From the NCBI GenBank assembly GCA_051004475.1, contig JBPCKH010000118.1:1-28716 (forward strand): a DNA stretch of 28,716 nt, in the 5' to 3' direction. Each line of letters begins with the position of its first letter. The first letter of the stretch is position 1. Source of the stretch: Candidatus Limnocylindria bacterium. Its GTDB lineage: Bacteria > Chloroflexota > Limnocylindria > QHBO01. Positions 1,550 through 2,236 of the stretch are shown here, piece after piece. The notes beneath the pieces were generated by a model. The model saw only the letters and a program-made list of their open reading frames with translations. It ran no database searches and was not told where the DNA came from. The position numbers and the translations under genes were made by a program.

Positions 1550-2236
1550 ATGGATGAACGACTTCTCCCGCAGCAGCCGACCGCCGCGAACGCCGAGGTG
1601 CTCAGCGTCGAGTGGCTGTTCGAGCCGCTCTGGCCCGGCACGCGCGTGTTTGCTCGCGCAGCCGCGGGTCGCGTGCGCCTGACTGATGAGCTCGGCCAGT
1701 CGGTCGAGCAGTTGGACGAGATGGTCGATGCACCGGAGGTTCTTGCCGGCGCGATCCTGGCCGATGAGGCAGTCATCGACGGCATCTGGTCTGCTCAGCC
1801 CTTTGTCGGTGACGGGAGCCCCGCGCGAGCCTGGGCCGAGACCTTGGCCAAGGAGGGCCTCGCCGAGGAGATTGCGGATCCCCTCGAGACAGAGCGGCGG
1901 CGTGCCTTCGTGGCCGTCGATCTCGTCGAGCTCGATGGTGAGCCGCTCCATGAGGTCCCCTTCCAGGAGCGTCGCCGGCTTCTCGAATCGGTGATCGACG
2001 AGGGGATCCAGGTCCGGCTCAGCCCGGTCGTCAAACAGCCGCTGGCCGGGTGGATGGTTGGCTGGCGGGCAAACGGCTTCACTCACTACATCGCCAAGCA
2101 CATGAACTCGCGCTATCGGCCAGGCGAAACCACCGAGGATTGGCTCAAGCTCTCCCTCCGCGTCGAGGCGCCGCGTGGTTTCGCCGGCCGCATGCTCGGT
2201 GGGCGCGGCGACCGCGTCCGTCGCGTCCGCGACTGA
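1550..2236 (+). CDS. ATP-dependent DNA ligase (LigD/LigC-like) adenylation-domain homologue with degenerate catalytic motifs and no OB domain
   Basis: WLFEPLWPGTR (family form W-x-x-E-x-K-x-D-G-x-R), VIDGI, AFVAVDLVELDGEPLHEVPFQERRRLLE, HYIAKHMNSRYRPGETTEDWLKL. Start is ATG 1550 or GTG 1547. Confidence 0.8.
   Translation: MDERLLPQQPTAANAEVLSVEWLFEPLWPGTRVFARAAAGRVRLTDELGQSVEQLDEMVDAPEVLAGAILADEAVIDGIWSAQPFVGDGSPARAWAETLAKEGLAEEIADPLETERRRAFVAVDLVELDGEPLHEVPFQERRRLLESVIDEGIQVRLSPVVKQPLAGWMVGWRANGFTHYIAKHMNSRYRPGETTEDWLKLSLRVEAPRGFAGRMLGGRGDRVRRVRD

What the first reader, a model, noticed from the sequence alone, without database searches (positions are those of the whole stretch)
1550..2236. 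Intact ORF encoding a DNA-ligase adenylation domain with its catalytic residues replaced
Seen: a 228-aa frame with no stops or shifts that follows the LigD/LigC nucleotidyltransferase scaffold. Motif I KxDGxR reads LWPGTR, so the adenylated Lys is Leu and the Asp is Pro. The SR motif reads TD, motif III DGE reads DGI, IIIa FD reads VD and motif IV EG reads HY. There is no OB domain. The intact ligase at 25407 keeps all of these (KYDGIR, FSR, DGE, FDLL, EGLMIK). Established: the motif I Lys is essential for ligase adenylation. Inference: loss of all catalytic residues while the fold and frame persist, plus its own promoter-like signals, suggests a repurposed pseudo-enzyme (nucleic-acid or nucleotide binder, or scaffold) rather than decay. 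It may be linked to the upstream DEAD-box helicase.
Basis: partly seen in the sequence, partly recalled or inferred. Interest (0 to 1): 0.7.

Follow-up and report, generated by a model that had tools for sequence, protein, structure and literature searches.

The report
Conserved catalytically dead DNA-ligase domain protein
This gene encodes a stand-alone copy of the core domain of a DNA-repair ligase that has lost every residue needed to join DNA yet is kept under selection across a whole class of soil Chloroflexota, so it probably works by binding something rather than by catalysis.

Summary
Window 1550-2236 (+) is an intact 228-aa ORF with the LigD/LigC nucleotidyltransferase (NTase) fold (Pfam PF01068 30 bits; Mtb LigD E 1e-10; AF2 pLDDT 89; Foldseek 1e-14). 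It has no OB domain, and motif I reads LWPGTR.

It is not a recent degenerate. Orthologues ("pLig1") form one clade across at least four families of the class (Candidatus Limnocylindria by source names). In 89 family members, against 33 intact ligases, every chemistry residue is lost or free to vary: K481, D483, R501, E530, the motif IIIa Phe, E613, K635 and K637 (Mtb LigD numbering). Scaffold residues and the three adenine/ribose contacts stay near-invariant. Within-genus dN/dS is about 0.1-0.3.

The helicase link is weak. The neighbour is a CshA/RhlE-type RNA helicase. Adjacency holds only in the window's own family, and other families have different neighbours. At least three lineages lost the gene cleanly.

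The same genome has a second dead ligase domain directly after Ku. In sister families an intact LigC-type ligase sits in that position.

The function is not determined. The most likely role is a non-catalytic binding module derived from an end-joining ligase. This scan had already noted the family in another genome, and I found no paper describing it.

The parts
1550..2236 (+). pLig1 ORF: 228 aa plus stop. A stand-alone catalytically dead LigD/LigC-type nucleotidyltransferase domain.
1622..1645 (+). Motif I remnant E25-P-L-W-P-G-T-R32. The nucleophile Lys is Leu and the Asp is Pro. E, W, G and R are invariant in 89/89 family members.
1778..1786 (+). Motif III remnant D77-G78-I79. The ribose-contacting Glu is replaced by a hydrophobic residue (Y/V/I across the family).
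1907..1921 (+). Motif IIIa F120-V-A-V123-D124. The Phe that is 100% conserved in intact ligases is Val here; the Asp is invariant.
2039..2080 (+). Helix P164...W168...W172...F177. These residues are conserved in the dead family (85-93%) but almost never found in intact ligases (0-9%).
2081..2098 (+). Motif IV remnant T178-H-Y-I-A-K183. The metal-ligand Glu and the Gly are lost. The Lys (Mtb K618 equivalent) is kept in 89%.
2141..2155 (+). Motif V remnant W198-L-K-L-S202. The two phosphate-binding Lys positions are unconstrained in the family; K200 occurs only in the window's own genus.
2159..2233 (+). Basic C-terminal tail (net +5 over 25 aa; GRxxGGRGxRxRRxRD). It is found only in family f1, and follows an acidic core (net -15, pI 4.6).
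170..1486 (+). Upstream neighbour: DEAD-box RNA helicase (CshA/DbpA/RhlE type). Context only; adjacency holds only within family f1.
2396..3823 (+). Downstream neighbour: divergent GpgS-like glycosyltransferase, the first gene of a Usp / GpgS / glycerate kinase cluster. Context only; adjacency holds in families f1 and f3.
25407..27146 (+). Intact three-domain ATP-dependent DNA ligase (LigB type) with all motifs.

Best explanation
pLig1 is a conserved pseudo-enzyme. It descends from a LigD/LigC-type end-joining ligase, keeps the nucleotidyltransferase fold, and has lost the OB domain and all residues for lysine adenylylation, metal binding and phosphate contact.

Shown:
- It is a real gene under purifying selection.
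- It is old and spans the class.
- It is dispensable, having been lost at least three times.
- It is stand-alone.

Inferred from established ligase enzymology:
- It cannot self-adenylylate or seal nicks.

Inferred, and the weakest step:
- It acts by binding, not catalysis, most likely as an accessory or regulatory module of the DNA-break/stress-repair machinery from which it derives.
- The binding surfaces would be the family-specific conserved residues (P26, E140, R143, R156, P164, W168, W172, F177, N186, R188) and, in its own family, a basic C-terminal tail.
- The partner is unknown.
For: Gene and fold:
- Pfam, PDB sequence, AF2 and Foldseek all assign the ligase NTase fold.

Loss of chemistry across the family (89 dead members against 33 intact ligases; residue roles from PMC8656161):
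- The equivalents of K481, D483, R501, E530, the motif IIIa Phe, E613/G614, R629, K635 and K637 are variable in the dead set and 91-100% fixed in the intact set.
- The equivalents of E479, W482, G484, R486, D528-G529, the motif IIIa Asp, K618, Y624 and W633 are kept.
- No alternative invariant Lys exists; K183 is Arg in 8 of 89.

Selection and age:
- NG86 dN/dS within the genus is 0.08-0.33, and 0.03 for the closest pair. The neighbours give 0.03-0.2.
- There are 802 homologues, and at least 70 representative clusters at 50% identity of about 200-250 aa all lack K/D.
- The pLig1 clade spanning families f1, f3 and f2/f5 has SH-aLRT 99.
- A dead-family profile found no short form in about 220 other Chloroflexota genomes.

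Link to the end-joining repertoire:
- The same genome has intact LigB, LigC and LigD, plus Ku, plus a second dead domain directly after Ku.
- Ku followed by the dead domain holds in 20/20 family-f1 loci. In f2/f5 an intact LigC-type ligase sits next to Ku.
- A metagenomic protein fuses a LigD 3'-phosphoesterase domain with apparently intact His/Asp/Arg motifs to a dead NTase domain.
Against: - No experiment and no partner. The only interaction test run gave no verdict (see Tried and rejected).
- Gene neighbourhood is not repair-related. It is an RNA helicase and an osmolyte/stress cluster in f1 and f3, and SPFH/NfeD genes and glutamate dehydrogenase in f2/f5.
- The core is strongly acidic (net -15, pI 4.6, against about -1 for intact NTase domains) and lacks the OB domain. 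This argues against the core clamping DNA the way a ligase does.
- The gene was deleted or replaced in at least three lineages without loss of Ku, pLig2 or the intact ligases, so any role is accessory.
- Retention of E25/R32/K183 may be purely structural.
Confidence: 0.6

Rival explanations
1. Cofactor of the adjacent DEAD-box RNA helicase. The basic RGG-like tail would supply RNA binding or dock on the helicase, which itself has only a short C-terminal extension.
For: - Same strand, 63-bp gap, and no terminator-like site.
- Helicase followed by pLig1 is kept within family f1 down to 44% pLig1 identity.
- The basic tail and the helicase adjacency are both restricted to f1.
Against: - Adjacency is absent in f3 and f2/f5, where pLig1 persists without the tail.
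- In genus g6 about 2.7 kb separates the two genes.
- The helicase and the downstream gene stay adjacent where pLig1 is deleted.
- The co-occurrence of tail and adjacency is a single phylogenetic event.
Confidence: 0.12
2. Adenine-nucleotide or nucleoside sensor. The pocket still binds an adenine-containing ligand through the E25, R32 and K183 equivalents without chemistry, and regulates a partner, possibly the downstream stress/glucosylglycerate cluster.
For: - The three residues that contact adenine and ribose in Mtb LigD (E479, R486, K618) are kept in 89/89, 89/89 and 79/89 members, while all phosphate and metal contacts are lost.
- pLig1 followed by the GpgS-like gene is kept in two families, with tight or overlapping junctions in some genomes.
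Against: - The motif IIIa Phe that is 100% conserved in intact ligases is Val/Ile/Leu in most members. I take this Phe to be the adenine-stacking residue from general ligase knowledge; this was not checked in a paper here.
- The ribose-contacting Glu is replaced by bulky hydrophobics, which suggests a filled pocket.
- The kept residues may be structural.
- In f2/f5 the neighbourhood is different.
Confidence: 0.12
3. Still an enzyme, with migrated catalytic residues or a different nucleotidyl/phosphoryl chemistry.
For: - Pseudo-enzymes sometimes relocate catalytic residues (general point made in the abstract of PMC10211241).
- There are family-specific invariant polar residues: E140, R143, R156, N186.
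Against: - No invariant Lys.
- All metal and phosphate ligands are gone.
- No OB domain to close over a nucleotide.
- The gene is dispensable.
Confidence: 0.05
4. A decaying relic (pseudogene in progress) with no function.
For: - It evolves about twice as fast as its neighbours.
- It has been lost at least three times.
Against: - The frame is intact in every orthologue examined across four families.
- dN/dS is 0.08-0.33.
- About 40 positions are at least 80% conserved, including a set not conserved in intact ligases.
- The AF2 model is confident.
Confidence: 0.02

Closest known systems
Ligase (LIG) domain of M. tuberculosis LigD (Rv0938; PDB 1VS0, 6NHX, 6NHZ), NTase subdomain
   Same: - Best sequence match among solved structures (E 1e-10), with the same fold (Foldseek E 1e-12).
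- Shares E479, W482, G484, R486, D528-G529, the motif IIIa Asp, K618, Y624 and W633 equivalents.
   Different: - Lacks K481, D483, R501, E530, the motif IIIa Phe, E613, R629, K635 and K637 equivalents.
- Lacks the OB subdomain and the PE and POL domains.
- Has an acidic core and a 15-20 aa longer segment between motifs III and IIIa.
- Has family-specific Trp/Pro/Asn/Arg residues.
Stand-alone LigC-type NHEJ/BER ligases of bacteria (NTase + OB, often next to Ku)
   Same: - Same domain family.
- In families f2 and f5 of this class an intact LigC-type gene sits directly after Ku, in the position where the window's genome has its second dead domain.
   Different: LigC has KWDG, all catalytic motifs and about 310 aa after motif I, including the OB domain. 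pLig1 has about 200 aa after motif I and none of the catalytic residues.
pLig2, the Ku-adjacent dead ligase domain of the same genome (G000:C38, L007:1339-2100)
   Same: - Dead NTase domain without OB.
- Motif I reads EAWWPGIR, with the same K-to-hydrophobic and D-to-Pro pattern.
- PF01068 28.8 bits.
   Different: - Only 28% identical to pLig1.
- Always directly after Ku.
- In the free tree it groups with intact Ku-adjacent LigC (SH-aLRT 91), but an AU test does not reject one clade of all dead forms (p 0.50).
Pseudo-enzymes in general (e.g. pseudokinases)
   Same: A homologue of an enzyme family that lacks the catalytic motifs but is conserved under selection.
   Different: I found no described DNA-ligase pseudo-enzyme family in the searchable literature.

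Membership tests
Pfam PF01068 / ATP-dependent DNA ligase NTase-domain superfamily (homology) | Profile score at or above the gathering cutoff | tested here: met
   30.0 bits against a cutoff of 26.2, residues 28-201
Pfam PF01068 / ATP-dependent DNA ligase NTase-domain superfamily (homology) | Ligase NTase fold | tested here: met
   AF2 pLDDT 89. The top 50 Foldseek PDB hits listed are all ATP-dependent DNA ligases, E to 1e-14.
Functional ATP-dependent DNA ligase (EC 6.5.1.1) | Motif I Lys nucleophile in KxDGxR | tested here: not met
   LWPGTR. The Lys position is L/A/Y/V/E/D/H across 89 relatives and K in 33/33 intact ligases.
Functional ATP-dependent DNA ligase (EC 6.5.1.1) | Motif III Glu, motif IV Glu (metal ligand), motif V Lys pair | tested here: not met
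   I79, T178, and K200/S202. K200 occurs only in the window's own genus. All are unconstrained in the family.
Functional ATP-dependent DNA ligase (EC 6.5.1.1) | OB-fold domain after motif V | tested here: not met
   The protein ends 28 aa after motif V and has no PF04679 hit. No longer relatives were found (weak evidence).
Functional ATP-dependent DNA ligase (EC 6.5.1.1) | Self-adenylylation and nick sealing | not testable with these tools
   Needs a biochemical assay.
LigD, 'bifunctional NHEJ protein' (the name JGI gives many homologues) | Phosphoesterase and/or primase-polymerase domain fused to, or encoded beside, an active ligase domain | tested here: not met
   Single PF01068 domain only. 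The true LigD of this genome is on contig C216.
LigD, 'bifunctional NHEJ protein' (the name JGI gives many homologues) | Genomic association with Ku | tested here: not met
   Ku is on another contig (C38), next to the paralogue pLig2 and not next to pLig1.
Pseudo-enzyme | Homologue of an enzyme family lacking the catalytic residues | tested here: met
Pseudo-enzyme | Maintained by purifying selection, not a pseudogene | tested here: met
   dN/dS 0.08-0.33 within the genus; intact frames across four families of the class
Pseudo-enzyme | Demonstrated lack of the ancestral activity | not testable with these tools
   Needs a biochemical assay.

The most novel reading that the evidence does not exclude
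Limnocylindria carry an undescribed family of non-catalytic ligase-fold proteins that act as structural or regulatory subunits of bacterial end joining and break repair. One paralogue (pLig2) occupies the position beside Ku where sister families have an intact LigC-type ligase. The other (pLig1, this gene) would be a free-standing accessory factor. If so, bacterial NHEJ, usually described as a two-component Ku-LigD system, would have dedicated non-enzymatic partners. That would be functionally comparable to the scaffold factors of eukaryotic NHEJ, but built from a dead ligase domain.
Probability: 0.15. Interest if true: 0.75.

Novelty: new variant of a known kind. Interest (0 to 1): 0.5.

Why it matters
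ATP-dependent DNA ligases are among the best-understood enzymes, and I could find no described pseudo-enzyme derivatives of them. Here a ligase NTase domain stripped of every catalytic residue and of its OB partner persists under selection across a bacterial class. A second such domain sits directly after Ku, where sister families have an intact ligase.

If these proteins bind DNA ends, nucleotides or repair proteins, they would add a non-catalytic layer to bacterial end joining in desiccation-prone soil bacteria.

There is also a practical annotation point. Many members are named 'bifunctional non-homologous end joining protein LigD' in public records. That name is wrong, and it inflates counts of NHEJ ligases in these genomes.

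Tried and rejected
- Complex prediction of the helicase (A3) with pLig1 (A4): no verdict, score 0.00. This counts neither for nor against binding.
- The look-up of sequencing runs for RNA: no RNA holder listed, so expression is untested and read laying was not used.
- Promoter/terminator consensus scan of 1300-2600: nothing found.
- Rfam and tRNA scans: nothing near the ORF.
- PADLOC: no defence-system match for pLig1, pLig2 or the downstream gene.
- Longer, fused relatives of pLig1: none at E <= 1e-15 (weak evidence).
- 'Two independent deaths' of the ligase domain: the free tree suggests it, but the AU test does not reject one clade of all dead forms (p 0.50). I leave this open.
- Pseudogene remnants in the 550-bp gaps of G054 and G147: none. 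An unrelated small lipoprotein-like ORF sits there.
- Literature searches for a described dead DNA-ligase family or Limnocylindria ligases: nothing relevant.
- ESM Atlas look-alikes: short PF01068 clusters, commonest in Chloroflexota. A few clusters of about 200 aa are labelled Bacillota or Pseudomonadota; their motif state is unknown and was not pursued.
- The dN/dS values for the downstream gene in rows involving L002, L011 and L023 are artefacts of split tblastn pieces and were ignored.

Full report
THE OBSERVATION

Window 1550-2236 (+) is an uninterrupted 228-aa ORF.
- It scores just above the Pfam gathering cutoff for the ATP-dependent DNA ligase adenylation domain (PF01068, 30.0 bits against 26.2, residues 28-201).
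- It gives weak LigD/NHEJ-ligase NCBIfam hits.
- Its best solved relative is the ligase domain of M. tuberculosis LigD (E 1e-10).
- An AlphaFold2 model built on a 27-sequence alignment is confident (pLDDT 89, pTM 0.83). Foldseek returns only ATP-dependent DNA ligases (E to 1e-14, TM about 0.6-0.65 over the query).

The motif readings are correct: LWPGTR for KxDGxR, DGI for DGE, VD for FD. Two are one residue out of register: 'SR' aligns with D46-E47, and 'EG' aligns with T178-H179. There is no OB domain. The claimed promoter-like signals were not reproduced by a consensus scan.

A FAMILY, NOT A ONE-OFF

The word-indexed search found 802 homologues. The top 120 are about 228 aa and 73-87% identical, and their source names are Candidatus Limnocylindria or Chloroflexota.

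The exhaustive representative search found about 1190 hits. They split cleanly:
- Proteins of about 200-250 aa carry E-P-x-W-x-G-x-R without Lys/Asp, in at least 70 clusters at 50% identity.
- Proteins of 290 aa or more carry KWDG.

In 151 genomes of the class, orthologues at 44-88% identity are present in most genomes of the window's family f1. More distant ones, at 31-42%, occur in families f2, f3 and f5. A quick ML tree puts all of these in one clade (SH-aLRT 99). A profile of the dead family found no short, high-scoring form in about 220 other Chloroflexota genomes. Hits there are frames of 330-1000+ aa at no more than 132 bits, the size of intact LigC/LigD.

WHAT IS KEPT AND WHAT IS LOST

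I used the residue roles given for Mtb LigD in PMC8656161 and tabulated each equivalent position in 89 dead-family sequences and 33 intact ligases.

Lost or free to vary in the dead set, but 91-100% fixed in the intact set:
- K481, the nucleophile
- D483
- R501
- E530
- the motif IIIa Phe
- E613/G614, the catalytic metal site
- R629
- K635 and K637

Kept:
- E479, R486 and K618, the adenine and ribose contacts: 89/89, 89/89 and 79/89
- structural residues W482, G484, D528-G529, the motif IIIa Asp, Y624 and W633

Conserved in the dead family but not in intact ligases: P26, E140, R143, R156, P164, W168, W172, F177, N186 and R188. W168 and W172 lie one helical turn apart on helix 166-174 of the model.

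The core is unusually acidic (net -15, pI 4.6; intact NTase domains have a median of -1 and pI 6.3). In family f1 only, it is followed by a basic tail of +5 over 25 aa.

SELECTION AND DISPENSABILITY

Nei-Gojobori dN/dS within the genus is 0.08-0.33 at dS 0.55-1.2, and 0.03 for the closest pair. The helicase gives 0.03-0.2 and the downstream gene 0.07-0.2. pLig1 is therefore constrained, but it evolves about twice as fast as its neighbours.

It is absent from the syntenic slot in five near-complete genomes:
- a clean junction in G030;
- a clean junction in G015 and G021;
- replacement by an unrelated small lipoprotein-like ORF in G054 and G147.
That is at least three losses. These genomes keep Ku-adjacent pLig2 and their other ligase-domain matches.

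CONTEXT

Within family f1 the gene order is DEAD-box helicase, pLig1, GpgS-like glycosyltransferase, Usp, GpgS, glycerate kinase, HhH-GPD glycosylase.
- The helicase is of the RNA type (CshA/DbpA/RhlE).
- In family f3 the helicase is not adjacent, but pLig1 still precedes the GpgS-like cluster.
- In f2 and f5 the neighbours are SPFH/NfeD genes and glutamate dehydrogenase.
No neighbour is constant across the clade, so the neighbourhood gives no functional assignment. The helicase link is at best specific to one family.

THE WIDER LIGASE REPERTOIRE

The window's genome (1.8 Mb, 70% complete) encodes the following:
- an intact LigB-type ligase, in this window;
- an intact LigC-type ligase;
- a LigD with phosphoesterase and ligase domains, cut by a contig end;
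- Ku;
- directly after Ku, a second dead NTase domain (pLig2; EAWWPGIR; 28% identical to pLig1).

Ku followed by pLig2 is found in 20/20 f1 loci and in two f3 genomes, where intact LigD follows pLig2. In f2 and f5 an intact LigC-type ligase with KWDG and an OB domain sits next to Ku instead.

The free tree groups pLig2 with those intact ligases (SH-aLRT 91). However, an AU test does not reject a single clade of all dead forms (p 0.50). One origin or two is therefore unresolved.

A metagenomic protein (P0255) fuses a LigD phosphoesterase domain, with its His/Asp/Arg motif apparently intact, to a dead NTase domain without OB. Dead ligase domains therefore recur among LigD relatives.

INTERPRETATION

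Firm conclusions: pLig1 is a real gene under selection, and it is an old catalytically dead derivative of an end-joining-type ligase domain. That it cannot adenylylate follows from established ligase enzymology, not from an assay.

What it does is inference. I favour a non-catalytic binding role tied to the repair/stress machinery it descends from. I hold this loosely for three reasons: the core is acidic, there is no OB domain, and the neighbourhood is not repair-related.

Alternatives:
- a cofactor of the helicase, specific to family f1;
- an adenine-ligand sensor;
- residual unknown chemistry;
- decay, which the data contradict.

PRIOR NOTES AND LITERATURE

This scan had already recorded the same family in another genome (e1-1507563) and a variant with SWQG at motif I (e1-938630). 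My independent tests agree with both. I found no paper describing a dead DNA-ligase family.

DATA CAVEAT

Four genomes are flagged unpublished: G123, G087, G106 and G091.
- G123 (L015) and G087 (L018) contribute two rows to alignments A2 and A4, the dN/dS table and the tree.
- G106 and G091 appear only in the tallies.

Noticed in passing
Own genome contig C38 (L007:492-1391 Ku; L007:1339-2100 pLig2); outside the window: A second dead ligase NTase domain (EAWWPGIR, no OB) lies directly after Ku. The adjacency is kept in 20/20 family-f1 loci. In families f2 and f5 an intact LigC-type ligase sits next to Ku instead. This may be the more interesting of the two dead paralogues.
   Followed up: yes
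window 2396-7204: A cluster of a divergent GpgS-like glycosyltransferase (no Pfam hit; 47.9 bits to NCBIfam GpgS), a Usp-domain protein, a bona fide glucosyl-3-phosphoglycerate synthase (360 bits, cutoff 262) and glycerate kinase. It looks like a glucosylglycerate-type compatible-solute/stress operon and is conserved in families f1 and f3.
   Followed up: partly
window 2258-2269 and 2370-2381: Two exact copies of TCGGTCAGAACC lie 112 bp apart in the spacer between pLig1 and the GpgS-like gene (0.18 expected by chance). No exact copy occurs in any locus fetched from other genomes. It could be an operator-like repeat.
   Followed up: partly
L071:880-1520 (G147) and L072:2840-3460 (G054): Where pLig1 is missing in these two genomes of the same genus, the slot holds an unrelated small ORF with an LAGC lipobox-like motif that is conserved between the two.
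   Followed up: partly
P0255 (L106:60-1124) and P0202 (L107:83-1051), metagenomic contigs: LigD phosphoesterase domain fused to a dead NTase domain without OB (EPRWPG in P0255; EPKWPG in P0202). P0202 has a partly degenerate PE region and is followed by a 686-aa DEAD/ResIII helicase, DprA and an ORC/Cdc6-like AAA protein.
   Followed up: partly
P0224 (representative library protein, 277 aa): CarD N- and C-terminal domains joined to the C-terminal half of a ligase NTase domain. This may be a gene-calling or assembly artefact.
   Followed up: no
L020 (G006:C7): In this genome pLig1 is followed directly by the HhH-GPD glycosylase, and the GpgS-like cluster is absent from the locus.
   Followed up: no
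window 10465-11310 (-), 16570-17676 (+), 24154-24846 (-): Three sizeable ORFs (281, 368 and 230 aa) with no Pfam hit. The rest of the window is ordinary: LytR-CpsA-Psr, ribosomal protein L25/TL5, a HAMP histidine kinase, an HtrA-type protease, a Mur-ligase-like protein, a PASTA Ser/Thr kinase, a sugar nucleotidyltransferase, tRNA-Thr and tRNA-Glu.
   Followed up: no
Public annotations of homologues: Many members of the dead family are named 'bifunctional non-homologous end joining protein LigD' by JGI. They have neither the extra domains nor the catalytic residues.
   Followed up: yes
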